Assembly (NCBI GenBank): GCA_002726495.1
Contig: PBTH01000062.1
Span: 9,239-73,238, forward strand
Direction: 5' to 3'
Origin: Methanobacteriota archaeon
GTDB lineage: Archaea; Thermoplasmatota; Poseidoniia; Poseidoniales; Poseidoniaceae
DNA length: 64,000 nt
The notes below the pieces were generated by a model. That model was not told the DNA's origin. It saw only the letters and a list, made by a program, of their open reading frames with translations, and did not search any database. Both the position numbers and the translations under genes were made by a program. Of this stretch, positions 4,203-45,534 are shown piece by piece. Numbering within the stretch: position 1 is the stretch's first letter; every line of letters begins with the position of its first letter.

Positions 4203-4505
4203 GGAGGGAGTAGGGAGTAAGCCCCTTTCTGTTTCCTTTCGGTGATCGCATTCAACTGTGCGTCCTACCTGTTCCTCGTCGTGCCGAGTTAACGGAACGG
4301 TTTGGACTTGCTCCAGCGGGGTTGCTCGTCTCATCGACAACAGGGCAATCTCGGTCTTTCAACGTCATTGTACACACCCTGTATCGTTCGTTTCTGCTGC
4401 ATTGACCCAACCATTTCTGTTTGCTTCCTTATGTCAGCCGCTTGCACTACGGAGAGGGGACTTTCCTCAGAGTCGAACTCTGTCAGCGATCCTCCTACTC
4501 CCTCC
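4203..4505 (-). ncRNA. rnpB: RNase P RNA (archaeal type A-like)
   Basis: On the minus strand: P1 5'-GGAGGGAGUAGGAGG pairs with 3'-CCUCCCUACUCCCUC (13/15 bp). P2 GAUCGC pairs with GCGAUC. P3 is a hairpin, CAGAGU-UCGA-ACUCUG. The P4 5' strand GAGGAAAGUCCCC pairs with the P4 3' strand ACAGAAAGGGGCUUA; the bacterial/archaeal consensus is AGGAAAGUCCGGGC...ACAGAACCCGGCUUA, and the CGG->CCC / CCG->GGG swaps are compensatory. Conserved GGAGCAAGUCCAAAC, ACAGGUAGG and UGAAUG elements are also present. Confidence 0.85.
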
Positions 4506-10452: not shown

Positions 10453-10529
10453 GGGCCTGTAGCTTAGTCAGGTAGAGCGATGGACTCTTAATCCATCGGC
10501 CGCGGGTTCGAACCCCGTCAGGCCCGCCA
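10453..10529 (+). tRNA. tRNA-Lys (anticodon CTT), CCA encoded
   Basis: Cloverleaf by eye. Acceptor GGGCCTG/CAGGCCC, anticodon stem ATGGA/TCCAT with loop CTCTTAA (anticodon CTT), T-arm GCGGGTTCGAACCCCGT, discriminator G, 3' CCA encoded in the genome. Confidence 0.9.
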
Positions 10530-16850: not shown

Positions 16851-16928
16851 TGGTGGGCGTACCAAGATTTGAACTTGGGTCCAAGCGTCCCAAACGCCCG
16901 AGTATAGGCCAAACTAACCCATACGCCC
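16851..16928 (-). tRNA. tRNA-Pro (anticodon TGG), CCA encoded
   Basis: Minus-strand acceptor GGGCGTA/TACGCCC, T-arm CCAAG-TTCAAAT-CTTGG, anticodon stem GGGCG/CGCTT with loop TTTGGGA (U33, anticodon UGG, G37), discriminator A, encoded CCA. The D-arm is atypical (weak 3 bp stem) and the body is 75 nt. Confidence 0.7.
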
Positions 16929-31993: not shown

Positions 31994-34288
31994 ATGGAAA
32001 GAAGAAGTAGGGGCGTGCTTTTTCTTGTACTCCTACTAACTTGCAGCCTCGTTTCACTTCCAGGTGAAGCGGAAAACAATTCATTGGAAGAAATCAATCA
32101 GACTCCGGGTTGCAACGCACACCGTGAAAACTGGACCGTCGGTTTGGTCTTTTGCACCAATGAATCTCAAGCCGGTTATACTCTAGTTTCGCCGTTTCGT
32201 ACTTCAATGGCCTACTTAATTGACCAAGAAGGACGGGAAATAAACACCTGGCAGTCACCAGGAGGCTACACGCCGGGTGCAGCAGCGTACTTGCTAGAAG
32301 ACGGAAGTCTTCTTCGGACCGGTAACATCGGTAATTCATCTGTTGGTAATTTTACAGGTGGAGGAATCGGAGGCAAGTTGGAACGTATCGGATGGGATGG
32401 AACGCTCGAATGGTCGTGGGAATATTCCTCCTACGATGCAATTCTACATCACGATATAGAACCGATGCCAAACGGGAATATTCTCGCTATTGCTTGGGAG
32501 GAAAAAAGTGAACAAGAGGCGATTGAAGCAGGTCGCAATCCTGCAATTGCAAGTGACGGCCCCGGTGGACAGAACAATGTTTGGCCAGACCACATTATTG
32601 AAATCCAACCCGTTGGAACTGACCAAGCAAACATCGTGTGGGAATGGCATGCTTGGGACCACTTGATTCAGGATTATGACGCCACCAAGAATAATTTTGG
32701 AATCGTTGAGGACCATCCCGAATTGCTAAACATCAACTATGTAACTCAAACAGGAAACCAAGCTGGGAGAGCAGACTGGATGCACTGCAATGGAATTGAC
32801 TACAACGAACAATTGGACCAAATTCTTCTGTCGTGCAAGGGAATGGATGAAATTTACATCATCGATCACAGCACGACCACTGGAGAAGCTGCTGGGCACT
32901 CTGGAGGAACGTACGGAAAAGGTGGGGATTTCCTCTACAGATGGGGCAATCCACAAGTCTACAAAAAAGGACTTTCAAGCAATCAACAACTGTTCGGCCA
33001 GCATGATGCTCAATGGATCGTGGACGGCCACCCCGATGCCGGTAAATTGATTGTATTCAACAACGGCGCTGGTAGACAAACACCCCACTCCAGCGTTGAG
33101 ATTCTCGATACGGGTGTTGAGGACGGCACCTATCCAATCCTTGCAAACGGAACGTTTAGTCCTGGCCATCCAACATGGTCTTGGAGTGAGGAAGGGATGT
33201 ATGCATCCATTGTTTCAGGAGCGCAGAGCTTGTCTAATGGAAACATTGTGGTCTCTATTGGCACCGTTGGCACTTTACACGAAATCACATCAACAGGTGA
33301 ATTGGTTTGGACGTACATCAACCCCATTGCAAACAATGCCACCCACCCTCAATCCGAGCCATTGTTACCGGGAAATATTGCAGGTACAACCAACAACATG
33401 TTGTTCAAAAGCCAGCGTTACGAAGCAAATTTTGCAGGTTTTGTTGGAAAGGACCTCACGCCCGGTGCATATCTTGAGCAATGGACGGATTTATGCCCGC
33501 AAGAATCTGCTTGGAAGTGGGATTCGGACGGTGATGGTTGTATTGATGACAGCGATGGAGACGGAGTTAACGACCCATACGACCGATGTGTAGTTGGTGA
33601 TGATAGTGTTGATGTTGATCAGGATTCAACTCCTGATGCTTGCGATTCATTTGTAGATTCAGACGCAGATGGCATAGAAGACCTTGCTGACCTCTGCCAG
33701 GGCCACTCGGACTCAATTGACATTGACAATGACAGAATTCCAGATGGCTGCGATGAACTCATTGATTCTGATTTAGATGGAGTTGCTGATAGCCTTGACC
33801 AGTGCCCTGGACATGACGATGAAATGGATGCAGATGGTGATGGTATTGCGAACGGTTGTGATGAGACTCCTTTCGCAACAAGCCTCGAGACTGAACATGA
33901 ATCCCAAAACATAACCACTGGACACACCGAGAAGGACAATGATGATACTGTATTGAATACAGAATCCTCTGAAGGCGACCGTGGAGGGGTTTCAATGTTG
34001 ACATTGCTCGGTTATGTGCTGATGCTACTTGGTTTGTGGCTGTTTATCTATCTTGCAATGGTCGCAGTTGGTAAGGGAAATTCATCTCAGCCAAACTTGA
34101 CATTCCAGGATGAGTTTGCACCAAATCAAGAGATTGTGAAACATGTTCCGGCTGTTGACCAGTCGCCGAGTTACGACAGCCCTCTCCCACCGCCCCTGCC
34201 CGCTACAGGCCTGCCAGATGGCTGGACTATGGAACAATGGAATTATTACGGAAATCAATGGCTTGAGCAAAATGAACGACGAGGATAA
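31994..34288 (+). CDS. surface protein: signal peptide, arylsulfotransferase(ASST)-like beta-propeller, thrombospondin type-3-like Ca-binding repeats, TM anchor, short cytoplasmic tail
   Basis: Signal MERRSRGVLFLVLLLTCSLVSLPGEA. ASST-like motifs HHDIEPMPNGNILAI, WEWHAWDHL, HCNGIDYN. Multiple DxDxDGxxD/CxxxxD repeats (DSDGDGCIDDSDGDGVND...). TM segment VSMLTLLGYVLMLLGLWLFIYLAMVAV. Tail ending LPDGWTMEQWNYYGNQWLEQ. Confidence 0.8.
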   Translation: MERRSRGVLFLVLLLTCSLVSLPGEAENNSLEEINQTPGCNAHRENWTVGLVFCTNESQAGYTLVSPFRTSMAYLIDQEGREINTWQSPGGYTPGAAAYLLEDGSLLRTGNIGNSSVGNFTGGGIGGKLERIGWDGTLEWSWEYSSYDAILHHDIEPMPNGNILAIAWEEKSEQEAIEAGRNPAIASDGPGGQNNVWPDHIIEIQPVGTDQANIVWEWHAWDHLIQDYDATKNNFGIVEDHPELLNINYVTQTGNQAGRADWMHCNGIDYNEQLDQILLSCKGMDEIYIIDHSTTTGEAAGHSGGTYGKGGDFLYRWGNPQVYKKGLSSNQQLFGQHDAQWIVDGHPDAGKLIVFNNGAGRQTPHSSVEILDTGVEDGTYPILANGTFSPGHPTWSWSEEGMYASIVSGAQSLSNGNIVVSIGTVGTLHEITSTGELVWTYINPIANNATHPQSEPLLPGNIAGTTNNMLFKSQRYEANFAGFVGKDLTPGAYLEQWTDLCPQESAWKWDSDGDGCIDDSDGDGVNDPYDRCVVGDDSVDVDQDSTPDACDSFVDSDADGIEDLADLCQGHSDSIDIDNDRIPDGCDELIDSDLDGVADSLDQCPGHDDEMDADGDGIANGCDETPFATSLETEHESQNITTGHTEKDNDDTVLNTESSEGDRGGVSMLTLLGYVLMLLGLWLFIYLAMVAVGKGNSSQPNLTFQDEFAPNQEIVKHVPAVDQSPSYDSPLPPPLPATGLPDGWTMEQWNYYGNQWLEQNERRG

Positions 34289-35706: not shown

Positions 35707-35967
35707 TCAACTCAGTGGATCGGAAACGCCTTGTTCACCAAGCGTCCACTTAAGGGTCTTAACAACACCTTGCAATGCCTTGTGATTTCGAGCGGCTTCC
35801 TTCATCCCATCTTTGTCCTGATTGGACTTGCATTCTTCATACCACTCCTTCCATTGAATCATTTTGACGGTGGCTTTGTCAAGCATGACCTCAATCTCTT
35901 CCCAAGTTCGGTCATAACTTCTCACGGGTTCAGCGTCTTTAGCCATAGGAAACAGAACCTTCGGCAC
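35707..35967 (-). CDS. small hypothetical protein
   Basis: 86 aa ORF, 33 nt downstream of the sugar nucleotidyltransferase on the same strand. No motif. Confidence 0.35.
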   Translation of the reverse strand: MPKVLFPMAKDAEPVRSYDRTWEEIEVMLDKATVKMIQWKEWYEECKSNQDKDGMKEAARNHKALQGVVKTLKWTLGEQGVSDPLS

Positions 35968-36000: not shown

Positions 36001-37068
36001 TCACTCGGGACGAGGGATGAGTTCAGATTCCAAAACCGAACCTGATTCAATCACTTGATGGTCGCCAATGACGCAATCCGTGAGCACAGCGCCAGCCAGA
36101 ATGTTGACATCACGACCAAGTATTGAACCGCTTATTCTTGCATCTGCTGCAACTCGACATCCATCCATCAACAACGAACCTGATATTGTTGCTGAAGATT
36201 CAACAATGCAGCCTTTGGAAACAACCGATGAAGATGTATCTCCGTTCACCATTGCATCATCTAAAATGAATCCATCATTACCAACCCATGACCCTTTCGG
36301 CAGCGAAAATGGAAGTTCCTTTACCTGCTCAAGCAGCGTTTTTTGAGCACGAAGCAGTTCCCTGGGATGCCCAACATCAAACCAAACACCATTGATTGTT
36401 TCCGCATACATTGGCCAACCCCGTTCAAGAACCAAAGGGAACAACTGTTTGCTAAAATCAAACTTTTCATGTTCCGGTATCAAATCAATGACCTCGGGTT
36501 CAATAATGTAGAGTCCAGCATTAATCACGTTGCTAAAGGCTTCATCTGGAGTTGGCTTTTCCTTAAATTTCCGAATATATCCAGATCGAAGCGAACCGTC
36601 AACTTCACCGTCTTGGGTTGATGACAATCCTACAATACCAAATTCGGAGGGATTTTCTACTTCCCAGAGGGCCATGGTTACTTTTGCATTGTTTGAACGA
36701 TGTTGTTGCAAAAGGCGATTGATGTCAAACGATGCTACTGAATCACCCGAACCAACCACACATGTTGTTTTAATTTGTTCTCGAAGCAAGCCGACACTAC
36801 CCGCCGTCCCCATTGGAGTTGCTTCCTGATTTACGGAAGCTTGTATACCTCCAACAGTTGATTGATTCCATGTAGAAACATGGTCTTTCAATTGCTCACC
36901 ACGATATCCGGTGGTCACAATAATTTCATTGATTCCAGCATTTTCCATCGCTTCTTTGACAAAGTCAATGACGGGTCTTCCAAGAACTTCCACCATAGGC
37001 TTGGGGCGGGTCAATGTTAGAGGCCGTAGACGCGAACCCTGGCCACCTGCCATGATGATTCCAAGCAT
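36001..37068 (-). CDS. sugar-1-phosphate nucleotidyltransferase with C-terminal left-handed beta-helix (GlmU/RmlA-like)
   Basis: MLGIIMAGGQGSRLRPLT...KPMV signature of NDP-sugar pyrophosphorylases, plus C-terminal hexapeptide repeats. Confidence 0.8.
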   Translation of the reverse strand: MLGIIMAGGQGSRLRPLTLTRPKPMVEVLGRPVIDFVKEAMENAGINEIIVTTGYRGEQLKDHVSTWNQSTVGGIQASVNQEATPMGTAGSVGLLREQIKTTCVVGSGDSVASFDINRLLQQHRSNNAKVTMALWEVENPSEFGIVGLSSTQDGEVDGSLRSGYIRKFKEKPTPDEAFSNVINAGLYIIEPEVIDLIPEHEKFDFSKQLFPLVLERGWPMYAETINGVWFDVGHPRELLRAQKTLLEQVKELPFSLPKGSWVGNDGFILDDAMVNGDTSSSVVSKGCIVESSATISGSLLMDGCRVAADARISGSILGRDVNILAGAVLTDCVIGDHQVIESGSVLESELIPRPE

Positions 37069-37080
37069 AGTAATGCCACC

Positions 37081-38079
37081 TCATCGGCGACGGATGGGTC
37101 CAAGTCGTTGCATGTTCTTCTTTTTTGATGAACTGTTGTTACGAGATGAGGAGGCTGTATCGCTCTTACCAAGCCCACCGAACATAAGTTCACCATCTTT
37201 GAGCAAAGATTGAACCAAACTTTCGGCAACTTCATCCGATTCAGCACCTGTCTTCATCTCAGCCTTAACCGCATTGTTGTGGTCAGACATCCATGATTTA
37301 CGCTCTTCAACAGCCAAATTGAGTTGTTCCCTTGCTTTGTTAACATCCACCATAAGTTCCTCAATCTTAGCGTGAATGTTGTTCGCCTTTTCGTGAGATT
37401 CTACAGATTCGAGGTGATGACGGTCTCCTTCAGCTTTGAGAAAATTGCGATGATCAAGACCTTCTTTATACTCAGCCCACTTTTCATCAGCACGCTTGAG
37501 AGCTTCTACAAACATCTTGTGTGCATCATCAGCTTCGGATTTGAGTGTACTGATTGCCTCATCAAGGTTTGAGAGGTCAACACTGACCATTTCAAACTTG
37601 ACGACTTCAGGCTCAAGCTCTCCTACACGACGCTTCATTCTCTTGATTCTCTCCATCGTTTCCTTCTCTTTTTTAGTGCTTGAGGAGGTCGTTTGGAATT
37701 TATCTTCAAGAGTCTTAATTTCATTCATCAGATGGGAAAATTCTGCTGTTGCAGATTTCTTTTCTCCTTTTTCATTCCGACGACCTTTGGCTTGACCGAT
37801 GAGTTCACGAAGTTGGGCTTGAATGGTGTCACGCTTTGCTTTGTGAAGATTGCGCTCCCCATGTATGGCGTCAAGCTCAGCCTTCATGAGGTCAAGTTTT
37901 TTCTTATGTTCACGATATTGTTCCTGAACTGCATTTCGCTTTTGAGCGATCGCTTTTCCCTGTTCGCGATAAGAATTTCTATTCTCACGCATCTTTCGAA
38001 CCTTACTCTCCATTGATTGGAGTTGTTCACGAAGTTCCGAATCAGGGTTGTTCTTAGCCTCATCTCTCTGGCCGCGCAT
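37081..38079 (-). CDS. coiled-coil protein (COG1340-like archaeal coiled-coil family)
   Basis: 332 aa, highly charged (K/E/R), heptad-like throughout. Paralogous in style to 46490..47365. Confidence 0.55.
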   Translation of the reverse strand: MRGQRDEAKNNPDSELREQLQSMESKVRKMRENRNSYREQGKAIAQKRNAVQEQYREHKKKLDLMKAELDAIHGERNLHKAKRDTIQAQLRELIGQAKGRRNEKGEKKSATAEFSHLMNEIKTLEDKFQTTSSSTKKEKETMERIKRMKRRVGELEPEVVKFEMVSVDLSNLDEAISTLKSEADDAHKMFVEALKRADEKWAEYKEGLDHRNFLKAEGDRHHLESVESHEKANNIHAKIEELMVDVNKAREQLNLAVEERKSWMSDHNNAVKAEMKTGAESDEVAESLVQSLLKDGELMFGGLGKSDTASSSRNNSSSKKKNMQRLGPIRRR

Positions 38080-38138: not shown

Positions 38139-39674
38139 CTACAATGAGCCGCCGAAGATGTTGTAAATCATCAGCAAAAATGAAGCAGACAAGCCAATTC
38201 CACCAAAAATATATGCAACAAAAGACCCTGTTGTTCGTAGCCATTGGCGGAATTCAGAACGAACTCGGACATTGATTTGACGGCCAAGCAATAATTCCCC
38301 ATTTGTTTCCTCAAGACGAACTGAGACCGTTGCATCGCCATGGGTGATTGGAATCAGTGTCTGCCAGGAAACAGTGCTGTCTTTTAGGAGGCCAGACATC
38401 TTCCCTAGAACATCCTCGTTTCCCTTGGCTGCAAGCGGAAGTGCTTCGTTTGACCACCAGTATTTCTGGCCAGGTTCAAGCCGATATGTGAGTGCGAGGT
38501 CCTTTGGTTGGAAATTCGGTGTTTGAATCCGGAATACCACCGTTCGCGTCTCCTTAGAAAGATTGTGAAACAATGTAAACAAGTTCGCTTTATCAGTCAC
38601 TACATTTTCCATATCAACTTCAAAGATTAAATCATCCATGGCGGGAGAACGACCGGATTCAAGATCTTGCTTCAAACGGTCAACCATTCTAAAGAAGGCG
38701 GGGCATGTTTGAGAAATGATTCCAATGAGTACAAGCCACACCTCAAGCGTGAACACCTCATGTGAAAATACAAAATCCATGCCATTCTTGTTTAGAATTT
38801 CGGCTAATTCCGATTCCAACGTCTTCCGGTCAAGACCGGTTGCATGGCGATAAATGGTCATAAGGAATTTTTCATGAGCAAAATGTGAGTCGATTGTTTT
38901 CTTAAATCCGGATTCTAATTCCTTAAGATAATCATCGTACTGAGACCTTAGGAGAGGGTCCATATGGGTTTTAAGAAGGTCATTGAAGACCATGTTCAAC
39001 GTCGATGGATGCACCGGTGGTGAATAGGCAGACAAAAGCCCCGTTCTGTCAACCATATTAAACGGAGTAGAGCGAGTAGGCAGATGCTGCCCTACAGAGA
39101 GAATCAAGAAAGAAGAAGATGCCAACAAGAATAATTTACCAAGAACAGAATCGGTTTCCAAATAAAGTACTATGAGCAACATGAAAGCCGACGATACTGC
39201 AAAGATCAACGACCTCGTATGGTGTGTCATCGAACTTTCAAGTTGGAACAGAAGCCCATCATAGCCATGAAGCGATTGAACCGAACGATGCTCATTGTTC
39301 GATGCTTCGACTTGTTTATGGAATTCAATAAGAGAGATCCCTACTCTGTATCGGTGAAAGCCGACTGCAAGAATGAAACCAAGTACTACCACGAATGACA
39401 AACTCGCCATAGCTGTGGAGAAACTCAAGCCCACATTGGGTTCAATATTTTTGGCCCACCACGAAGGGGAATCTTGAGAAAAGGCCCACGTAGCGAAATA
39501 TGTGAAGGCAGCAAATGCTGGAAGGAACATAATCAGTCGGAGTCCGGAACTGACGATTTGCCGGTCAATAGCATGGATAATTGATTCAGAAGGACGGAAC
39601 CCAAATCGGCTCTTTGATTCACTAGAGTCTTCTGGCTCCGAGGAGGAATCCAAGACTTCATCTACCTCTGCCAT
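38139..39674 (-). CDS. hypothetical membrane protein
   Basis: Acidic N-terminus, about 4-5 TM helices in the first 210 aa, a soluble middle domain and a C-terminal TM. No motif. Confidence 0.55.
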   Translation of the reverse strand: MAEVDEVLDSSSEPEDSSESKSRFGFRPSESIIHAIDRQIVSSGLRLIMFLPAFAAFTYFATWAFSQDSPSWWAKNIEPNVGLSFSTAMASLSFVVVLGFILAVGFHRYRVGISLIEFHKQVEASNNEHRSVQSLHGYDGLLFQLESSMTHHTRSLIFAVSSAFMLLIVLYLETDSVLGKLFLLASSSFLILSVGQHLPTRSTPFNMVDRTGLLSAYSPPVHPSTLNMVFNDLLKTHMDPLLRSQYDDYLKELESGFKKTIDSHFAHEKFLMTIYRHATGLDRKTLESELAEILNKNGMDFVFSHEVFTLEVWLVLIGIISQTCPAFFRMVDRLKQDLESGRSPAMDDLIFEVDMENVVTDKANLFTLFHNLSKETRTVVFRIQTPNFQPKDLALTYRLEPGQKYWWSNEALPLAAKGNEDVLGKMSGLLKDSTVSWQTLIPITHGDATVSVRLEETNGELLLGRQINVRVRSEFRQWLRTTGSFVAYIFGGIGLSASFLLMIYNIFGGSL

Positions 39675-39713: not shown

Positions 39714-40376
39714 CTATTCGGTTGATAATTGAACGAAAATTGCCGATGCCCATTCCTCCGAAACCAAAAGTTCTCGGTCATCAATGAAGAATCGCCCGCT
39801 GTAATCACGCCGTACTTCTGAACCGATGGAAAGGCCGTTCGCTTCAAATCCATCAACGATCTTCTGTGGCAGAAGGATGGTCATGACTGAACCCCTCTTA
39901 TTATCCCCCATACCTTGAAGTGAAACTGCCCCTAAATTCCCCGAAATACGCTGTTCTATATCTTCAGTAGGAGCGGGAATTGGCCTCCCACTTGGGTCCT
40001 CAGTCACCCCGCCCATCAATAGGGATAGAGCTACTTCCAAATCATCATCTATTGCATGTTCGAGCCTGCATGCTGTTTCATGAGCATTACCGTTGTATGG
40101 TAGGACCTCAAGAAGAAGTTCAGCAAGACGATGGCGTCGCTTCATTTTCTGACCATGAGTCAATCCATCCTCGGTCAAAATTGCCCCTTTGTATGGAATG
40201 TATTCAATAAAACCCCTTGCAGCGAGACGTTGAATCATTTCCGTTGCGGAAGCTGGTGCAACACCAAGTCGCGATGCGAGATCACCAGTGCGAACCCTTT
40301 GATTCGGATCCTGCTCATAGAATTCATACATCGTTTCAAGGTATTCATCCTCAAACTCCTGGAAATGGCCAACCAT
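39714..40376 (-). CDS. DtxR/MntR-family metal-dependent transcriptional repressor
   Basis: Winged-helix segment (DLASRLGVAPASATEMIQRLAARGFIEY), a dimerisation/metal-site region (HRLAELLL...ETACRLEH) and a C-terminal SH3/FeoA-like extension. Confidence 0.85.
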   Translation of the reverse strand: MVGHFQEFEDEYLETMYEFYEQDPNQRVRTGDLASRLGVAPASATEMIQRLAARGFIEYIPYKGAILTEDGLTHGQKMKRRHRLAELLLEVLPYNGNAHETACRLEHAIDDDLEVALSLLMGGVTEDPSGRPIPAPTEDIEQRISGNLGAVSLQGMGDNKRGSVMTILLPQKIVDGFEANGLSIGSEVRRDYSGRFFIDDRELLVSEEWASAIFVQLSTE

Positions 40377-40396: not shown

Positions 40397-42913
40397 CTAC
40401 CCATCCTCTGCCTTGAAAACTTTACTACAAGCGGGACATCTCACCGAACCGCCATAAGACTCTGGAATTCGAAGTGTTTGAGAGCAATCTGGACAGGATA
40501 TCTCAATTTTTCCATCCTTAGATTTCTTTGACTCTGATGAAGTTTGAGCTTCGGTTGTTGAAGTTGAATCCGGTTCTTCTTGCTCGGGGACTTGAGCCTC
40601 AACCTCAAATTTAGTTGAGCAATCTGGACAGCCAACTGAACCCGAATAATCGGATGGAACTCGAAGCCTTCGGTCACACTCAGGACATTGTACCTCAATC
40701 TTCTCTTGACTGGGGGAGGAAGAGGCTTTCTTACGTGGCGAAGATGGTTTTTGGACGCTTGACGAACCTTCAACACGATTCATGCGAATACGCAACACAA
40801 GTGATACGACTAAACCTCCAACCAGACCCCATATGATGGCACCTACTGGCATTGATTCGGATTCGCCCTCCAAAGGCTCGCCTGAAACATAGGATTCTTG
40901 GTCTGAAACCATGGTCCCATCGATCGACCAAACCGCTTGAATCACAACATTGGAACCTTTAGGCCATACCAAATCCATTTCTACGCTAAGGGACTGAGAT
41001 GAGCCCCAACTTGGCGATGCAGTCGATGAAAGAATCTCATCGTATTCATTCTTCAGGATGAGGTTGCCAACACTCGTTGAAATCGGACCGGACTGATGAA
41101 GTGTCAATTTGATGGTAGCTGTATCACCTTGTGCAGGTAAAATAGGCTGGGGAATGTCCTCCATTTCGACCCAATATACCGTTCTCTCTTCAGGAACATT
41201 GACAGATACTGATAGCGCACCTGGCCCAATTGACCAATCTTCCGCTGATATCTTCAAAACTATTTTTTCAGCATTAACTTGTCCAAATGACATTTGTTCA
41301 GTATGGATGCCCTGCTCAAGAAATTTGACATATTCAAAGAGGTACACCGTTGTATCGGATGTTTCATACCCTAATTGAACCAAAACATCTCGAGGTTTGC
41401 CTTCGTCCAATTCATAAACGACCTCAAAAGATAATCCTGAATCTTGGGACCATACGACTTCATTGATAGTCAATCCAATTGATTGTTGTTCCATAACGGG
41501 CAAGGTGAAATTCCCCGCATTGACACCATCAATACTACCATCATCACTCTCGAGGGCCCATTCAAGCACATGTTCACCAGAATCAATGAAAAGGAAACTC
41601 GATGAAACTTCTCCGGCCTCACCGGATTTTAAGATGAGCCAATCACCCACTGACGGTTGGCTTGTGAGGTCTGATTGGTCAACAAGAACCATTCGTACCC
41701 TGCCTTCAAGGTCGCCAACATTACGAATCAGCATGTTTGCCCTCAATGAATCTCCCAGATGCCATGGACCTCCAGTTAAGGAGGGCGTTACTGAACCTGC
41801 GGAGGCAAAGGAGGCTGATTCCATATTGGCTGTGATGAGGATCGGAAGTGTCGATTGGGCCCCGATTCGGCCCTCTGAAAGACTGCAGTTAACGGTCACA
41901 GGTTTCGCAGTCATTGAAAATTCCCATGTGAAATTAGAACCAGCTGGTATGGCTTCAGTAGTTGTCAGTAAAACTTCATTTTGAGTGTTGCATTCGATGA
42001 TTCCGTTAAAATCAACAGTTCCATTGTTTGACACATTGAGGTGGAATACCAATAACTCACCAGCTACAATTGATTCTGAATTTGAAATTAAAGAAGTCAT
42101 AAGTTCAGGCAAAGGTGGGGCAAGGACAGACAATGTTCCGTTTCTCGAGTGCTGTCCGTTATTCTCTCCAAGCGTTCCATTAAGTTCATACGACCAGTTC
42201 ATCAAACCTTCCACGGCAGAAAAAGAGGTGGTGATGCTGGCATAAACGGACGACATGGCCTCTACAGAAAAATCCTCAAGAACAATTGATTCATTGTAAG
42301 GGCCGTTTTCAATCTCTACATTGATTGAGCCCGTCCAGTTGACATCCCCTTGATTTGAAACAGGCAGTTGAAGTTGGACATAATCTCCATCGTGAATCGA
42401 AAGATTACCCGTGATGGCCCCCAATGAATCAACACCCTGGGAGAGGATGCTACCTGCGGCCCCGAGTTCCAAAGAAAGGGGTCTTAATCTCTGGATGGTT
42501 CTAGAAAGGGAAAGTAAATGAGTTCCTGATTCAATTCCAACTTCACCTAAAAGTTCAACGTGTATTTCGCTAAATCCATAATCCAGTGAAGTCAAATTGA
42601 CCGTCACATTCCTTTGTTCGAGCGAACTCAGATTAAACATCTGAGATGGGAGTTGTTGAAGAACAACACCTTCAAGTGATTTGACGGACACATTCAGTTC
42701 AACATTAGCGTAACTTCCATCGGTTTCATGAAGTTCCAAAGTGAACGAATAATTTTCAGTTGAAAAGGTATCGTAATCGTAAATTCCAAAACTAACTTCG
42801 TCGATGACTCCTGAGCCATTCGTGGCATGAACAGAGGGCACTAATGACAGAAGAAGGAGCGTGACGAGGACGGCGGGAATCCGACTCCGAAATGCGCCGT
42901 TACCTCCGCCCAT
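40397..42913 (-). CDS. large surface protein with signal peptide, C-terminal TM anchor and cytoplasmic tail carrying two MJ0042-type zinc ribbons
   Basis: N-terminal signal (AVLVTLLLLSLVPSVHA), long beta-rich ectodomain, TM (AIIWGLVGGLVVSLVL), then the tail modules VQCPECDRRLRVPSDYSGSVGCPDCSTKFEV and ISCPDCSQTLRIPESYGGSVRCPACSKVFKA (CPxC...15...CPxC each). Confidence 0.8.
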   Translation of the reverse strand: MGGGNGAFRSRIPAVLVTLLLLSLVPSVHATNGSGVIDEVSFGIYDYDTFSTENYSFTLELHETDGSYANVELNVSVKSLEGVVLQQLPSQMFNLSSLEQRNVTVNLTSLDYGFSEIHVELLGEVGIESGTHLLSLSRTIQRLRPLSLELGAAGSILSQGVDSLGAITGNLSIHDGDYVQLQLPVSNQGDVNWTGSINVEIENGPYNESIVLEDFSVEAMSSVYASITTSFSAVEGLMNWSYELNGTLGENNGQHSRNGTLSVLAPPLPELMTSLISNSESIVAGELLVFHLNVSNNGTVDFNGIIECNTQNEVLLTTTEAIPAGSNFTWEFSMTAKPVTVNCSLSEGRIGAQSTLPILITANMESASFASAGSVTPSLTGGPWHLGDSLRANMLIRNVGDLEGRVRMVLVDQSDLTSQPSVGDWLILKSGEAGEVSSSFLFIDSGEHVLEWALESDDGSIDGVNAGNFTLPVMEQQSIGLTINEVVWSQDSGLSFEVVYELDEGKPRDVLVQLGYETSDTTVYLFEYVKFLEQGIHTEQMSFGQVNAEKIVLKISAEDWSIGPGALSVSVNVPEERTVYWVEMEDIPQPILPAQGDTATIKLTLHQSGPISTSVGNLILKNEYDEILSSTASPSWGSSQSLSVEMDLVWPKGSNVVIQAVWSIDGTMVSDQESYVSGEPLEGESESMPVGAIIWGLVGGLVVSLVLRIRMNRVEGSSSVQKPSSPRKKASSSPSQEKIEVQCPECDRRLRVPSDYSGSVGCPDCSTKFEVEAQVPEQEEPDSTSTTEAQTSSESKKSKDGKIEISCPDCSQTLRIPESYGGSVRCPACSKVFKAEDG

Positions 42914-43004
42914 GGTGCTTGTTGTTTGAAGGGGTTCTTCACCTTCACGCTGAAAGAAGTTGTGAGGGCATGTTTATTCAACATTGAACTGCCCCCCGTA
43001 ATCA

Positions 43005-43520
43005 ATGCAGGACGAACGTTTGTTGGAAGTGAGTCCCGAATTCTTGGTTCGGGCCATTCTTCATCGCCGTCAACGGCTTGCAGAAATGATTCCAAAACAG
43101 CTTGAATCTCGCAAAGATGAGAAGGAAATTGCAGAGGCATTGGCAAGAGATGCTAAACAACGTAGAGACGAGATCAAAACAAACCTGGACGAATTCTCTA
43201 AACAACTGAAAAAACTCGACGAGGGCAGCCCCCAACACGAAAAAATGCTTGTTGAGCGGGATACATTCATTCAGGAGGCTCAAAAATCCGAGCATGAGTA
43301 TCTAGAAAATGAACTCTTCAGAAGAAGGAGCGATTCCAGAACCAAGCGACTCACACATGCACTGAACGATTGTGAACGTTCGATTGAATACTGGGAAGGA
43401 GTGCTTGATAATGGATTTGAAGAGCTCCTTGTCGATGCTACACGGGTCAAACAAGGAGGACCCTCAAGTTATGCTCTATCAAAAGGAGCAAAACCTGAAA
43501 GGAGGTTGAAAAATGAGTGA
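43005..43520 (+). CDS. hypothetical coiled-coil protein
   Basis: 171 aa, charged and helical. Its stop overlaps the next gene's start by 8 nt (operon). Confidence 0.5.
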   Translation: MQDERLLEVSPEFLVRAILHRRQRLAEMIPKQLESRKDEKEIAEALARDAKQRRDEIKTNLDEFSKQLKKLDEGSPQHEKMLVERDTFIQEAQKSEHEYLENELFRRRSDSRTKRLTHALNDCERSIEYWEGVLDNGFEELLVDATRVKQGGPSSYALSKGAKPERRLKNE

Positions 43521-45534
43521 GAAACCATGCCCTCACACAGGCTTTTCATCATCCCAACAAAAGCAGTGGCCACTTCTTCATTCCCAATTGCTGGGAACTC
43601 TTGAACTTGAAGGAATAGAATCCATTTCAGAATCATATCTGAAACAACTCTCCGAAGAGATTTCCTCTACGATTCAGAATTCCGCAATGAGCAGGGAAGA
43701 AACAAAGGCCCGTGAGCGAATCTATCAACATCTCAAACACAATATTGAACACAAACTTGCAGGCAGTAAACTCCACGCCTTTGGCTCAACTCAGTCTCAA
43801 ACCTCATTGGGTGTCGGAGATCTTGACCTTTGTCTTGTTGTTAATGGCCCATCTCCAAGAAAAATCCTCAACAAAATACGAAACATTTTGACCGAACTTG
43901 AAATGAATGAAATTGAGGTTATTGGCCGTGCGAAAGTACCCATTATCAAATTCAAAGAACCCGAAACCGGACTGCCTATCGACATCTCTGTCAACAATGA
44001 GCTTGCACTTTACAATACTGAACTTATTCGGTCATATGCAGATACTCATCCGATGGTCCGCAATGCTGTTCTAACCGTGAAATTCTGGGCATCTTCTCGC
44101 GGTATCAATCAGGCCTTTATGGGGACCTTGTCTTCATATGCATGGACGCTGATGGCATTGGCTGCCATGCAATTGGATCCAAAGGTCCAACTGCCAAACC
44201 TGCAAAAAAACGCTGACAAAAACATCATCCGTTTGGACGAAGAATACGATGTAGGATACAATTCAGAATCCAATTTTGAATGGAATCCTGAACTGGACCT
44301 GGCCACATCTTTTGTCGCTTTTATTCACCGATTTGTATTTGATTGGCCATTTGAAGAAGATGTTATCTCAATACGCAACGGCGGAACGCTCTCTCGCAAA
44401 GATAAGAATTGGAATCAAGGTGAGCCAGAAGCATTTGATCTGCTTCCAGACTCTCTTGACCGAAGACTTGGCCTGCATTCCATGCCGATTGAAGACCCAT
44501 TTTCACTCAACCATGATTTAGGCCGTGTATTGAGGCCGTCAGGCTATCTCACAATTAGAGAAGAATTCCTCAAGGCATGGCTCGGTTTGCTAAAATCCGA
44601 ACCGTGGTCAGAACTTTCCAAAAAGGAGAATGTAAGTGTAATCGAAGAATTTGATTTGTTTGAAGACTTACGACCACGAGCAATGGATGAAGTCCATGCG
44701 CTGCATCAAGAAGTACTTGACAATCTTTCCCGAGTTGAGGAAGAAGGGAGAACCTTTAGCGCACAACGTAAATCCATCAGTCAAGCCATTCAGTTTGCCT
44801 TGGGCAAGAGGGATACTCCACCTCAAGGTTCAATCGGCCCAGAAGATGACCGCTCTGAAGAAATCAATGATTCTAAATCACAACTGGACGATTTGACCTC
44901 CCAAAGGGATGAATTGGTAGGCAACATTGTCATCTCATCTCCAAAGATATCCGAAACACTTCGACAAACATTTGATCGGATTACGGAACAATTGGATGTG
45001 ATGAACATCCCTTCATTGGAACGTGAACAAGAGCTTGCATCCCTCTTTTTAGAACTTCAAAGCATGCATCCAATCGGTAAAGAAGTTGACCGATTGAATC
45101 GAGAAATCCATCTCATAAAGAAGCCACTTCATGGCAACATCAAACACCTCAACAAAGCCGAAAAGAAAATGAAACGTTCACTGCGAACCAATAAGAAAGA
45201 AGCCAAAAAATTACGTCGTGAAAAAGGCCGCCTTGAATCGTGGATTCGTATCAAAAATGGACCGAAAAAACCACGAAAAAACGACAGGCAGCGTGGAAGA
45301 AAACATCGGGGACCAAAACCAAGTGATGTCAAAAAGAAAATGGATTCTGGTGAATCGCTTTCTATGGAAGATCTCAGTGCGTTATTACAGCATGGAGGTG
45401 TCCTCAATATGGACGCAAAGAACGGTAACTCTCGCCAGGGTAAGCGGAAAAATAAGGGCAAAAACAACTCTTCTAATCACCAAGTCAAGCGTGGTAAGCG
45501 AGGAAAAGGCAAGCACAATCAACGAAGGGATTGA
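43513..45534 (+). CDS. Cid1/GLD-2/Trf4-family nucleotidyltransferase (non-canonical poly(A) polymerase / terminal uridylyltransferase-like) with PAP-associated domain and basic C-terminal tail
   Basis: Pol-beta NTase catalytic motif LHAFGSTQSQTSLGVGDLDLCLVV (GS...DxD) with the third Asp in IDISV. PAP-associated-domain hallmarks: AKVPIIKF...GLPIDISVNNELALYNTELIRSYADTHPMVRNAVLTVKFWASSRGIN...GTLSSYAWTLMALAAMQ and IEDPFSLNHDLGRVL. The C-terminal roughly 150 aa are Lys/Arg-rich (KKPRKNDRQRGRKHRGPKP...KRGKRGKGKHNQRRD). Confidence 0.75.
   Translation: MSEKPCPHTGFSSSQQKQWPLLHSQLLGTLELEGIESISESYLKQLSEEISSTIQNSAMSREETKARERIYQHLKHNIEHKLAGSKLHAFGSTQSQTSLGVGDLDLCLVVNGPSPRKILNKIRNILTELEMNEIEVIGRAKVPIIKFKEPETGLPIDISVNNELALYNTELIRSYADTHPMVRNAVLTVKFWASSRGINQAFMGTLSSYAWTLMALAAMQLDPKVQLPNLQKNADKNIIRLDEEYDVGYNSESNFEWNPELDLATSFVAFIHRFVFDWPFEEDVISIRNGGTLSRKDKNWNQGEPEAFDLLPDSLDRRLGLHSMPIEDPFSLNHDLGRVLRPSGYLTIREEFLKAWLGLLKSEPWSELSKKENVSVIEEFDLFEDLRPRAMDEVHALHQEVLDNLSRVEEEGRTFSAQRKSISQAIQFALGKRDTPPQGSIGPEDDRSEEINDSKSQLDDLTSQRDELVGNIVISSPKISETLRQTFDRITEQLDVMNIPSLEREQELASLFLELQSMHPIGKEVDRLNREIHLIKKPLHGNIKHLNKAEKKMKRSLRTNKKEAKKLRREKGRLESWIRIKNGPKKPRKNDRQRGRKHRGPKPSDVKKKMDSGESLSMEDLSALLQHGGVLNMDAKNGNSRQGKRKNKGKNNSSNHQVKRGKRGKGKHNQRRD

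What the first reader, a model, noticed from the sequence alone, without database searches (positions are those of the whole stretch)
40397..40560. Surface glycoprotein-like protein whose cytoplasmic tail carries two MJ0042-type zinc ribbons, co-operonic with a DtxR-family metal repressor
After the single C-terminal TM helix the tail contains two repeats of CPxCxxxLRxPxxYxGSVxCPxCSxxF(E/K), which is the MJ0042/zinc_ribbon_4-5 consensus. This could be an intracellular docking or signalling module on an extracellular adhesin-like protein. The gene is followed 20 nt downstream by a DtxR/MntR-type regulator, then a membrane protein, a coiled-coil protein and a sugar nucleotidyltransferase on the same strand (42913 down to 35707). 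This suggests a metal-responsive cell-surface operon.
Basis: partly seen in the sequence, partly recalled or inferred. Interest (0 to 1): 0.55.

Follow-up and report, generated by a model that had tools for sequence, protein, structure and literature searches.

The report
Archaeal surface protein with zinc-ribbon tail
This is an uncharacterised cell-surface glycoprotein of the abundant ocean archaea called Marine Group II; its short intracellular tail carries two strictly conserved zinc-binding modules, and its gene is fused into one operon with a metal-sensing regulator, which suggests a link between the cell surface and the cell interior that has not been studied.

Summary
Gene 40397..42913 (-) encodes an 838-aa protein with:
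- a Sec-type signal peptide;
- about six beta-sandwich ectodomains, enriched in N-glycosylation sequons;
- one TM helix (aa 689-707);
- a 131-aa tail with two CPxC-x15-CPxC zinc ribbons. The flagged coordinates cover only ribbon 2 (40409-40507); ribbon 1 is at 40601-40699.

Charge distribution, sequon distribution and the single TM helix place the tail in the cytoplasm.

The family occurs in more than 80 Poseidoniales (MGII) species and is named only "hypothetical" or mis-annotated. Every complete member, long or short form, keeps both ribbons. They are the best-conserved part of the protein (0.59-0.66 pairwise identity, against 0.38 for the ectodomain).

A DtxR-family regulator with conserved metal-ligand positions follows at 2-70 nt, or overlaps, in every lineage examined. 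An SD-like sequence often precedes it, so co-transcription is well supported by comparison, though not shown directly.

No DtxR, IdeR or TroR box lies upstream. Instead there is a conserved, non-palindromic 18-nt element (GCGWGAAGGTGAAGAACC).

Most likely the ribbons are cytoplasmic protein-docking modules, as in bacterial ZitP and GltJ, that couple the surface protein to partners encoded in the operon. Metal-responsive control is plausible but unproven.

This is a new variant of a known kind, of moderate interest.

The parts
40397..42913 (-). Gene for the 838-aa type I membrane glycoprotein (called ZnR838 here)
   Evidence: ORF; 42 full-length homologues; 80 genomic loci, all Poseidoniales except one mis-binned contig.
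42824..42913 (-). Signal peptide, aa 1-30 (MGGGNGAFRSRIPAVLVTLLLLSLVPSVHA)
   Evidence: Hydropathy peak at aa 7-30, basic n-region and a VHA cleavage-type end; helix 12-23 in the AF2 model.
40850..42823 (-). Ectodomain, aa 31-688: about six beta-sandwich (Ig/CARDB/MG-like) domains, acidic and rich in sequons
   Evidence: AF2 mean pLDDT 82 with all-beta domains at 35-142, 148-264, 271-362, 367-474, 479-572 and 579-676. Foldseek hits are to multi-Ig/MG proteins, including the H. volcanii S-layer protein 7ptp. 17 NxS/T against 6.9 expected. PF07705 CARDB is recorded for some homologues.
40793..40849 (-). Single transmembrane helix, aa 689-707
   Evidence: Kyte-Doolittle 2.22; AF2 helix 691-710; acidic flank outside and RIRMNR inside.
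40700..40792 (-). Disordered S/P/K-rich linker 1, aa 708-738
   Evidence: pLDDT below 50 for 710-735; pairwise identity 0.26.
40601..40699 (-). Zinc ribbon 1, aa 739-771 (C743, C746, C762, C765)
   Evidence: Invariant Cys; pairwise identity 0.66; two beta-hairpins at pLDDT about 84; below the Pfam cut-off when scanned alone.
40508..40600 (-). Disordered acidic/S/T-rich linker 2, aa 772-802
   Evidence: pLDDT below 50 for 775-798; pairwise identity 0.19.
40409..40507 (-). Zinc ribbon 2, aa 803-835 (C807, C810, C826, C829)
   Evidence: Zn_ribbon_5, Zn_ribbon_4 and TIGR02098 hits on 805-835; pairwise identity 0.59.
42933..42950 (-). Conserved non-coding element GCGTGAAGGTGAAGAACC, 20-21 nt upstream of the ATG in most loci
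   Evidence: Present at no more than one mismatch in front of the gene in about 75 loci, including ones where the protein is only 33% identical. Unique in the 64-kb window. It is a direct repeat (GTGAAG twice), not a palindrome.
42969..42988 (.). Conserved AT-rich box TTCAATGTTGAATAAACATG in the divergent intergenic region; a candidate TATA/BRE
   Evidence: Conserved across loci. It sits about -27 to -32 from the ATG of the divergent coiled-coil gene and about -59 to -66 from the ZnR838 ATG, by my own count.
39714..40376 (-). DtxR/MntR-family metalloregulator, 220 aa, 20 nt downstream
   Evidence: PF01325 (56 bits) and PF02742 (64 bits). PDB hits to MntR, IdeR, DtxR, ScaR and SloR, the last two over the full length. 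Ligand positions H82, E86, H99, C103, E106 and H107 are conserved in 77-82 of 82 orthologues.
38139..39674 (-). Membrane protein of 511 aa, lineage-specific, with no known domain
   Evidence: No Pfam or NCBIfam hit. 238 homologues, all unnamed; the few source labels seen are Poseidoniales, Thermoplasmatota or archaeon. AF2 pLDDT 62.7: four N-terminal TM helices, a helical plus beta domain at aa 200-478, and a C-terminal TM helix. No significant PDB fold match.
37081..38079 (-). Coiled-coil protein, 332 aa
   Evidence: Only weak SMC/Rad50 coiled-coil matches. Orthologues give sub-threshold DUF7121 hits. Always follows the membrane protein.
36001..37068 (-). Sugar-1-phosphate nucleotidyltransferase with a left-handed beta-helix tail, 355 aa
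   Evidence: PF00483 154 bits and Hexapep_GlmU. Conserved in Poseidoniaceae but absent from this position in L085.
35707..35967 (-). Small conserved ORF, 86 aa, last gene on the strand
   Evidence: tblastn matches at 61-88% identity in the Poseidoniaceae loci that extend that far (61 loci); no family hit.
43005..43520 (+). Divergently transcribed coiled-coil protein, 171 aa
   Evidence: Conserved divergent neighbour; 263-308 aa with weak DUF7121 similarity in other lineages.

Best explanation
ZnR838 is a lineage-specific (Poseidoniales / Marine Group II) type I envelope glycoprotein. A signal peptide directs export. About six N-glycosylated beta-sandwich domains sit outside the cell, one helix crosses the membrane, and a 131-aa tail stays in the cytoplasm.

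The tail carries two non-identical Cys4 zinc ribbons on flexible linkers. I infer that these ribbons act as protein-docking modules. They would tie the surface protein to conserved intracellular partner(s), most probably products of the same operon: the large cytoplasmic domain of the 511-aa membrane protein, the coiled-coil protein(s) or the DtxR-family regulator.

The gene is the first cistron of a conserved operon (ZnR838, DtxR-like gene, membrane protein, coiled-coil protein). The second cistron is a DtxR/MntR-type regulator with conserved metal-ligand positions, so operon output is probably tied to Mn/Fe status.

Shown: the domain anatomy, the conservation pattern and the gene linkage. 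Inferred: the topology, zinc binding, the docking role, co-transcription and metal control.
For: Anatomy:
- ORF and motifs.
- AF2 model with pLDDT 82: all-beta ectodomain, TM helix 691-710, two small beta-ribbons separated by disordered linkers.
- Foldseek matches only multi-Ig/MG-domain surface or secreted proteins.

Topology:
- All 17 sequons lie in the ectodomain (z about 4.4 against shuffles) and none in the tail.
- The ectodomain has 89 D/E against 22 K/R.
- The 15 residues after the TM helix carry four basic residues and one acidic; the 15 residues before it carry none and four.

Selection on the tail:
- Ribbons show 0.66 and 0.59 pairwise identity, the ectodomain 0.38 and the linkers 0.26 and 0.19.
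- The eight Cys are invariant.
- With one apparent exception (P0079), the complete representatives in an exhaustive HMM search, whether long (about 800-910 aa) or short (about 490-630 aa), keep one TM helix followed by two ribbons. Large paralogue-like proteins that share ectodomain repeats have none.
- Each ribbon has its own orthologous signature, so the two are not redundant.

Operon:
- Identical order in 80 Poseidoniaceae loci.
- The core (ZnR838, DtxR-like gene, membrane protein, coiled-coil protein) is kept in divergent lineages where the flanks are rearranged, with 8-, 4- and 1-nt stop/start overlaps.
- Median gap 17 nt.
- SD-like GGAGG/GGTGA lies 5-12 nt before the DtxR start in many loci, and the gap has no T-run.

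Regulator:
- DtxR-family domains.
- Metal ligands conserved in 77-82 of 82 orthologues.

Precedent: cytoplasmic zinc ribbons of bitopic membrane proteins dock partners. ZitP binds PopZ (PMC5182065, PMC5182063). GltJ ZnR binds MglB and its own linker (PMC11135422).
Against: - No partner has been identified, and no complex could be modelled with the tools available.
- Membership of the ribbons in the MJ0042-type families is marginal.
- In the characterised examples the ribbon is N-terminal; here it is C-terminal.
- The whole region is syntenic in Poseidoniaceae, including unrelated genes (PdxS, ferredoxin). Adjacency within that family alone is therefore weak evidence; the argument rests on the divergent lineages and the overlaps.
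- No recognisable DtxR-type operator lies upstream.
- An internal promoter inside the 3' end of the gene cannot be excluded.
- Topology rests on hydropathy and charge rules, not on a dedicated predictor or an experiment.
Confidence: 0.55

Rival explanations
1. Shared transcript only. The DtxR-like gene rides on the surface-protein transcript, or has an internal promoter, and regulates metal-homeostasis genes elsewhere in the genome. The zinc-ribbon tail would then have nothing to do with it, or with metals.
For: No DtxR, IdeR, MntR or TroR-type palindrome lies upstream of the operon or anywhere in the window. The conserved upstream element is not dyad-symmetric. Synteny in Poseidoniaceae also extends to clearly unrelated genes. 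An AT-rich stretch (AAAGTTTT) about 34-41 nt before the DtxR ATG lies inside the ZnR838 coding region.
Against: Adjacency survives in divergent lineages where the flanks are rearranged, and start/stop codons overlap there. SD-like sequences precede the DtxR start, as expected for an internal cistron.
Confidence: 0.2
2. Major envelope (S-layer-like) protein. ZnR838 would be the main surface-lattice or glycocalyx protein of MGII cells, and the ribbons would anchor it to a sub-membrane scaffold built from the two adjacent coiled-coil proteins.
For: It has the classic archaeal S-layer glycoprotein layout: signal peptide, chain of Ig-like domains, enriched sequons and a C-terminal TM helix. The H. 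volcanii S-layer protein csg (7ptp) is among the Foldseek hits. Every contig examined carries one copy, across the order. Coiled-coil genes flank it on both sides in every lineage. A sugar nucleotidyltransferase is in the cluster.
Against: The Foldseek similarity is generic; csg ranks 42nd and TM-scores are below 0.2. There is no evidence on abundance or lattice formation. Some lineages have a short form lacking about 300 N-terminal residues. A 131-aa cytoplasmic tail is not a feature of known S-layer proteins (my own knowledge).
Confidence: 0.15
3. Nucleic-acid or ribosome tether. The basic zinc ribbons would bind RNA, DNA or ribosomes at the membrane.
For: Weak sequence resemblance to ribosomal zinc ribbons eS27 and eL43 (E 0.3-0.8), and source annotations as 'ribosomal protein S27E'. 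There are conserved basic motifs: RRLRVP, TLRIP and RRPAKAR.
Against: All of these matches are non-significant. The best profile matches are to Zn_ribbon_4/5, whose characterised members bind proteins (PMC5182065, PMC11135422).
Confidence: 0.04

Closest known systems
ZitP (Caulobacter crescentus), a bitopic zinc-finger protein
   Same: A single-pass membrane protein whose cytoplasmic Cys4 zinc ribbon is a protein-docking module; it binds PopZ (PMC5182065, PMC5182063). The small two-hairpin ribbon is of similar size.
   Different: ZitP is bacterial. It has one ribbon at the N-terminus (type II orientation) and a periplasmic DUF3426 domain. Here the protein is archaeal, has two different ribbons at the C-terminus of a type I protein, a six-domain Ig-like glycosylated ectodomain, and an operon link to a DtxR regulator.
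GltJ (AgmX) of the Myxococcus xanthus gliding machinery; its ZnR is the partly characterised gene named in the TIGR02098 MJ0042 family description (my recollection)
   Same: The cytoplasmic ZnR of a membrane protein, separated from other elements by a flexible linker, works as a switchable docking site for MglB and for its own linker (PMC11135422). The ribbon-on-disordered-linker design is the same.
   Different: In GltJ the ribbon is N-terminal and paired with a GYF domain. There is no GYF domain here. No MglA/MglB context was seen in the operon or the loci examined.
Archaeal S-layer glycoproteins, e.g. Haloferax volcanii csg (PDB 7ptp)
   Same: Signal peptide, a string of Ig-like domains, N-glycosylation and a C-terminal membrane anchor.
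   Different: csg ends at its anchor, which is processed and lipid-linked (my own knowledge). This protein continues into a 131-aa cytoplasmic tail with two zinc ribbons. The fold similarity is generic.
Zinc-binding anti-sigma factors (ZAS family), a functional analogy only
   Same: A membrane protein with a cytoplasmic zinc-binding domain, co-transcribed with a transcription factor that it sequesters (established knowledge).
   Different: There is no HxxxCxxC motif and no sigma factor; archaea have none. No sequence or fold relationship was found or is claimed.
DtxR/IdeR/MntR/TroR metalloregulators (for the second cistron)
   Same: HTH plus dimerisation/metal-binding domains, conserved ligand positions, and full-length alignment to ScaR and SloR.
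   Different: The ligand set is mixed: Glu at the DtxR Met10 position but Cys at the Cys102 position (DtxR numbering is from my own knowledge). It is embedded between two membrane-protein genes rather than next to a metal transporter. No palindromic box was found.

Membership tests
MJ0042-type zinc ribbon (TIGR02098 / Pfam Zn_ribbon_4 PF13717 / Zn_ribbon_5 PF13719) | Profile score at or above the curated cut-off | tested here: met
   For the whole protein: PF13719 34.2 bits against 29.3, PF13717 34.1 against 30.3, TIGR02098 21.9 against 20.9. This is marginal. Alone, ribbon 2 scores 29.3 (equal to the cut-off) on PF13719 and 28.5 (below) on PF13717. Ribbon 1 scores 26.7 and 25.7, both below.
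MJ0042-type zinc ribbon | CxxC ... CxxC pair of knuckles forming a small two-hairpin ribbon | tested here: met
   CPxC-x15-CPxC occurs twice and all Cys are invariant. AF2 gives beta-hairpins at pLDDT about 80-84. The spacer is 15 residues; the TIGR02098 description quotes about 19 (my recollection).
MJ0042-type zinc ribbon | Usual position at the N-terminus of the protein, upstream of a TM segment | tested here: not met
   Both ribbons are C-terminal to the TM helix. Other proteins hit through the ribbons alone (P0170, P0184, P0188) do carry them N-terminally.
MJ0042-type zinc ribbon | Binds one Zn2+ through four Cys | not testable with these tools
   Needs metal analysis of the recombinant tail.
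DtxR/MntR family (second gene, 39714..40376) | N-terminal winged-helix DNA-binding domain plus dimerisation/metal-binding domain | tested here: met
   PF01325 56.1 bits (cut-off 26) and PF02742 63.6 bits (cut-off 27). PDB hits 8pvt, 5zr4, 2h09, 1fx7 and 1bi0.
DtxR/MntR family | Conserved metal-ligand residues | tested here: met
   H82, E86, H99, C103, E106 and H107 are kept in 77-82 of 82 orthologues. E11/E14 are kept in 77 of 82 and replaced by M/K in the divergent clade. The mapping to DtxR and MntR ligand numbering relies on my own knowledge plus the alignments.
DtxR/MntR family | Palindromic operator near a regulated promoter | tested here: not met
   Upstream of 42913 the best match to the IdeR/DtxR box has 9 of 19 mismatches. 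A window-wide scan for that box at up to 3 mismatches found nothing. The TroR-like TTTAGGC-N3-GCCTAAA pattern gave only chance-level hits (motif from bioRxiv 10.1101/2023.08.16.553580). This does not exclude an unknown operator.
Archaeal S-layer glycoprotein | Signal peptide, multi-domain beta ectodomain, N-glycosylation sequons | tested here: met
Archaeal S-layer glycoprotein | Forms the abundant 2-D lattice of the envelope | not testable with these tools
   Needs proteomics or cryo-ET of uncultured MGII cells.
Archaeal S-layer glycoprotein | Protein ends at the membrane anchor (TM helix or archaeosortase signal at the extreme C-terminus) | tested here: not met
   A conserved 131-aa tail follows the TM helix.
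Operon with the DtxR-like gene | Same strand, short or overlapping junctions, adjacency conserved beyond general synteny | tested here: met
Operon with the DtxR-like gene | A single transcript spans the junction | not testable with these tools
   Needs metatranscriptome read mapping or RT-PCR.

The most novel reading that the evidence does not exclude
The tandem zinc-ribbon tail is a membrane-anchored anti-repressor. It would bind the co-translated DtxR-family regulator and hold it at the membrane, for example through the regulator's SH3-like C-terminal domain. It would release the regulator when the six-domain ectodomain engages a ligand, particle or surface, or when metal status changes. That would be a one-protein transmembrane signalling route in archaea, analogous to bacterial anti-sigma/ECF pairs. 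The conserved GTGAAGGTGAAG element would be the autoregulated target.
Probability: 0.1. Interest if true: 0.8.

Novelty: new variant of a known kind. Interest (0 to 1): 0.42.

Why it matters
Marine Group II archaea (Poseidoniales) are among the most abundant planktonic archaea, and none has been cultured. Their cell envelope and the way they sense particles or metals are unknown.

This locus is found in every contig examined, from more than 80 Poseidoniales species, and is unannotated. It physically links three things:
- a fast-evolving, glycosylated surface protein;
- an extremely conserved intracellular zinc-ribbon module;
- a metal-sensing transcription factor.

If the ribbons dock operon-encoded partners, this would extend the ZitP/GltJ principle (cytoplasmic zinc ribbons acting as adaptors on bitopic membrane proteins) to archaea, and to C-terminal tails of type I proteins. 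It would also give a concrete handle for studying MGII envelope biology: antibodies, heterologous pull-downs and metatranscriptomic regulation by Fe/Mn.

In addition, it corrects misleading public annotations of this family ("ribosomal protein S27E", "CHY-type Zn finger", "HypA").

Tried and rejected
- **Genome scan with the 28-sequence alignment.** It failed because no stretch was conserved enough. It was redone with 17 closer sequences. The patterns used come from the ribbons of the Poseidoniaceae type, so the absence of other families among the 80 loci reflects the method, not biology.
- **Canonical operators.** IdeR/DtxR, B. subtilis MntR, SloR/ScaR, Fur and TroR-like boxes were not found.
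- **Rfam, for the conserved upstream element.** Only a sub-threshold Glutamine-II hit (16.6 bits against 33), which I rejected.
- **The upstream element as Shine-Dalgarno or coding sequence.** GAAGGTGA resembles an SD, but it lies about 23 nt from the ATG, no alternative start codon follows it, and its spacing (20 or 21 nt) does not preserve the reading frame. I rejected both readings. Its nature remains unexplained.
- **DUF7121 for the coiled-coil proteins.** Only sub-threshold hits (about 20 bits against 29), so they are not filed there.
- **The 511-aa membrane protein.** No Pfam or NCBIfam hit. The AF2 model is mediocre (pLDDT 62.7) and Foldseek gave nothing below E = 0.01. Function unknown.
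- **The Anti-TRAP, HypA, LysW and eS27 matches to the ribbons.** All are below their cut-offs and reflect generic CxxC knuckles.
- **The sigma-70 promoter/terminator scanner.** Not used, because the organism is an archaeon (RNase P RNA of the archaeal type).
- **Literature searches.** Searches for Poseidoniales S-layer, MGII DtxR, and zinc-ribbon cytoplasmic tails in archaea found nothing about this protein.


Full report
**1. What is in the sequence**

The ORF at 40397..42913 (-) encodes 838 aa. Hydropathy finds an N-terminal signal-like segment (aa 7-30, ending SVHA) and exactly one internal TM helix, aa 689-707.

The 131 residues after the helix contain two repeats:
- CPECDRRLRVPSDYSGSVGCPDCSTKFE, with Cys at 743, 746, 762 and 765;
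- CPDCSQTLRIPESYGGSVRCPACSKVFK, with Cys at 807, 810, 826 and 829.

In window coordinates, ribbon 1 is 40601-40699 and ribbon 2 is 40409-40507. The flagged interval 40397-40560 therefore covers only ribbon 2.

Profile scores are as follows:

| Model | Whole protein | Curated cut-off | Ribbon 2 alone | Ribbon 1 alone |
|---|---|---|---|---|
| Pfam Zn_ribbon_5 (PF13719) | 34.2 bits | 29.3 | 29.3 | 25.7 |
| Pfam Zn_ribbon_4 (PF13717) | 34.1 bits | 30.3 | 28.5 | 26.7 |
| TIGR02098 MJ0042_CXXC | 21.9 bits | 20.9 | not scanned | not scanned |

The "MJ0042-type" label is the nearest family, but the fit is marginal. What is robust is that these are two Cys4 zinc ribbons. In the window, no other ORF of at least 80 aa (from the first Met) has such a pair.

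**2. Topology and fold**

Three independent features place the large N-terminal part outside the cell and the tail inside.
- All 17 NxS/T sequons lie between aa 32 and 468, against 6.9 +/- 2.3 in shuffled ectodomains. The tail has none.
- The ectodomain is strongly acidic (89 D/E against 22 K/R).
- The 15 residues after the TM helix (RIRMNRVEGSSSVQK) carry four basic residues and one acidic. The 15 residues before it carry none and four.

AF2 with a 28-sequence alignment gives mean pLDDT 82. The model shows:
- about six beta-sandwich domains between aa 35 and 676;
- a helix at 691-710;
- two disordered linkers (710-735 and 775-798, pLDDT below 50);
- two small two-hairpin ribbons (738-771 and 802-834, pLDDT about 80-84).

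Foldseek against the PDB returns only multi-Ig/macroglobulin-domain proteins: complement C3/C5, alpha-2-macroglobulins, ciliary central-pair proteins and, at rank 42, the Haloferax S-layer protein 7ptp. TM-scores are low, so the resemblance is at the level of domain type only. Some homologues carry a recorded CARDB (PF07705) hit.

I did not have a dedicated topology predictor. The topology is an inference from these rules.

**3. Family and conservation**

A word-indexed search found 42 homologues of 795-887 aa, down to 28% identity. They are named "hypothetical protein", or mis-named HypA-type Zn finger, ribosomal protein S27E or CHY-type Zn finger. The window protein is 98% identical to MAJ00799.1 from a "Euryarchaeota archaeon" MAG.

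A pattern-based scan of species-representative genomes returned 80 loci. All but one are labelled Poseidonia, Poseidoniaceae, Poseidoniales or generic Thermoplasmatota/euryarchaeote. The exception, a "Verrucomicrobiales" 6-kb contig (L062), has identical synteny and is evidently mis-binned. An archaeal RNase P RNA at 4206-4502 confirms the domain.

An exhaustive profile search of 1.84 billion representatives gave 115 hits below 1e-30. With one apparent exception (P0079), the complete members have a signal segment, one TM helix and two ribbons after it. They come in two forms: a long form (about 800-910 aa) and a short form (about 490-630 aa) that lacks the N-terminal domains. Very large proteins that share ectodomain repeats have no ribbons.

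Mean pairwise identity by region:

| Region | Mean pairwise identity |
|---|---|
| Ectodomain | 0.38 |
| TM helix | 0.42 |
| Linker 1 | 0.26 |
| Linker 2 | 0.19 |
| Ribbon 1 | 0.66 |
| Ribbon 2 | 0.59 |

All eight Cys, plus P744, L750, V752, P753, Y756, G758, F769, P808, P817, P827 and F833, are invariant. Each ribbon keeps its own signature across species. In the divergent clade, ribbon 2 switches to a CPKC...RRPAKARCP form. The two ribbons are therefore orthologously distinct rather than a recent duplication.

This is the pattern expected for a fast-evolving exposed ectodomain coupled to conserved intracellular binding surfaces.

**4. Gene neighbourhood**

tblastn of the window's proteins against the 80 loci shows the same order everywhere:
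- on one strand, read divergently: the Cid1-like nucleotidyltransferase and a coiled-coil gene;
- on the other strand: ZnR838, the DtxR-like gene, the 511-aa membrane protein, a coiled-coil gene, the NTP-transferase and the 86-aa ORF;
- then convergent PdxS and ferredoxin.

Unrelated genes are syntenic too, so this alone is weak evidence for a functional link. Divergent lineages are more telling.
- In L081-L083 (homologues at 28-31% identity) the downstream flank is rearranged, but the block from the divergent coiled-coil gene through ZnR838, DtxR-like gene, membrane protein and coiled-coil gene to the NTP-transferase is retained. In L081 and L083 the DtxR stop overlaps the membrane-protein start by 4 nt.
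- In the short-form lineages, ZnR838 overlaps the DtxR gene by 8 nt and the DtxR gene overlaps the membrane-protein gene by 1 nt (L084). In L085 the gaps are 2 and 5 nt, and the NTP-transferase is no longer there.

Across the loci, gaps are as follows:

| Junction | Gap |
|---|---|
| ZnR838 to DtxR-like gene | median 17 nt |
| DtxR-like gene to membrane protein | 32-52 nt in most loci |
| Membrane protein to coiled coil | 35-60 nt |
| Coiled coil to NTP-transferase | 9-24 nt in most loci |

The ZnR838-DtxR gap usually contains GGAGG, GAGG or GGTGA 5-12 nt before the DtxR start, and it has no T-run. SD-like sequences at that distance also precede several other genes in this window.

Co-transcription and translation of the DtxR-like gene as an internal cistron is therefore the best reading. 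It remains an inference. An internal promoter overlapping the last codons of ZnR838 (AAAGTTTT, about 34-41 nt before the DtxR ATG) is not excluded.

**5. The regulator**

The 220-aa protein has both DtxR-family domains. It matches solved MntR, IdeR and DtxR structures and, over its full length, ScaR and SloR. The full-length matches imply the third, SH3-like domain; Pfam FeoA did not hit.

Positions that align with the metal ligands of the family are conserved in 82 orthologues:
- C103, E106 and H107 in 82 of 82;
- H82, E86 and H99 in 77-79 of 82;
- E11 and E14 in 77 of 82, replaced by M and K in the five divergent loci.

The assignment of these positions to DtxR Met10, His79, Glu83, His98, Cys102, Glu105 and His106, and to MntR Asp8/Glu11, uses my knowledge of those structures together with the alignments. 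Because the ligand positions are conserved, it is probably a real metal sensor. Its metal, and its targets, are unknown.

**6. Upstream region**

The best match to the IdeR/DtxR box has 9 of 19 mismatches, the MntR, SloR and Fur boxes also have no close match, and TroR-like boxes occur only at chance level.

Alignment of the 91-nt divergent intergenic region across loci reveals two conserved blocks separated by variable sequence at fixed spacing.
- An AT-rich box, TTCAAYGTWRAWRAAACA (42969-42988). It lies where a TATA box for a leaderless transcript of the divergent coiled-coil gene would lie. It is also about 26 nt upstream of the second block.
- GCGWGAAGGTGAAGAACC (42933-42950). It sits 20-21 nt before the ZnR838 ATG in most loci, is present even where the protein is only 33% identical, and is unique in this window. 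It is a direct repeat (GTGAAG twice), not a dyad. It is neither coding nor a usable SD (section "tried and rejected").

This element could be the start of a conserved 5' UTR, an atypical promoter element or the binding site of an unknown factor. I could not decide between these.

**7. Mechanism**

I commit to the following. ZnR838 is an envelope glycoprotein whose cytoplasmic tail presents two zinc-ribbon docking modules on flexible linkers. These modules bind conserved intracellular partner(s).

The only characterised relatives of this ribbon type behave in exactly this way.
- ZitP's ribbon binds PopZ (PMC5182065, PMC5182063).
- GltJ's ribbon binds MglB and an intramolecular linker, acting as a switch (PMC11135422). 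[quoted passage not shown]

The most economical candidates for partners are the co-inherited operon products:
- the membrane protein's roughly 280-aa domain between TM4 and TM5, which the positive-inside rule places in the cytoplasm (my reading of the sequence);
- the coiled-coil proteins;
- the regulator itself.

Which one it is remains unknown. The DtxR-like cistron makes some coupling to Mn/Fe status likely, but that step is not shown.

**8. Rivals**

- The regulator merely shares the transcript (0.2).
- The protein is the MGII S-layer or glycocalyx protein, anchored to a coiled-coil scaffold (0.15). This is compatible with docking but makes a stronger claim.
- The ribbons tether nucleic acid or ribosomes (0.04).
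- The most novel reading not excluded is that the tail sequesters the co-translated DtxR-family regulator, as an archaeal analogue of anti-sigma/ECF signalling (about 0.1).

**9. Novelty and verdict**

I found no description of this family in the held literature, and public records call it hypothetical or mis-name it.

Its parts are known kinds: Ig-like surface domains, Cys4 ribbons and a DtxR regulator. What is new is the arrangement:
- a C-terminal tandem ribbon tail on a type I archaeal glycoprotein;
- invariance across an order;
- translational coupling to a metalloregulator.

I rate it a new variant of a known kind, with moderate interest (0.42). Its interpretation is partly supported.

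Noticed in passing
window 43513-45534 (+): A 673-aa protein with eukaryote-type non-canonical poly(A) polymerase / TUTase domains: MTPAP-like_central 96.8 bits and PAP_assoc 31.5 bits (cut-off 22.6). It has an intact GS...DLD nucleotidyltransferase motif and a long K/R-rich C-terminal tail. It is conserved next to the divergent coiled-coil gene in Poseidoniales loci. Cid1-like enzymes are unusual in archaea. A literature search for Cid1 + archaea + Marine Group II found nothing.
   Followed up: partly
window 42933-42950 (-) and 42969-42988: Two conserved non-coding blocks lie in the 91-nt divergent intergenic region. One is the unique 18-nt direct-repeat element GCGWGAAGGTGAAGAACC, at a fixed 20-21 nt from the ATG. 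The other is an AT-rich TATA-like box. Their nature (5' UTR, operator or promoter) is unresolved.
   Followed up: partly
L062 (NZEQ01000095.1): A 6-kb contig deposited in a 'Verrucomicrobiales bacterium' MAG carries the ZnR838, DtxR-like, membrane-protein, coiled-coil and NTP-transferase block at 44-79% identity to the window. It is almost certainly a mis-binned Poseidoniales contig.
   Followed up: partly
window 31994-34288 (+): A second surface protein of 764 aa: signal peptide, arylsulfotransferase-like beta-propeller (PF05935, 74.6 bits), thrombospondin type-3 Ca-binding repeats, a TM helix, and a proline-rich tail ending in a DGWTMEQWNYYGNQWLEQ motif. This is another type I protein with a conserved-looking cytoplasmic tail.
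   Followed up: no
window 37081-38079 (-) and orthologues: The operon's coiled-coil protein ends in a basic peptide...KKKNMQRLGPIRRR. The same ending (KKKNMRRMGPIRRR) can be read in the L022 and L027 stretches printed. It may be a membrane- or partner-binding motif.
   Followed up: no
window 4206-4502 (-): Archaeal RNase P RNA (RF00373, 226 bits), plus tRNA-Lys at 10453-10529 and tRNA-Pro at 16851-16928. These confirm an archaeal chromosome.
   Followed up: yes
L081-L085 compared with L001-L080: In the divergent clade, ribbon 2 changes signature (SYxGSVRCP becomes RRPAKARCP). In the same five loci the DtxR-like protein changes its two N-terminal ligand positions from E/E to M/K, which is DtxR-like. 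With five loci this cannot be told apart from shared ancestry.
   Followed up: partly
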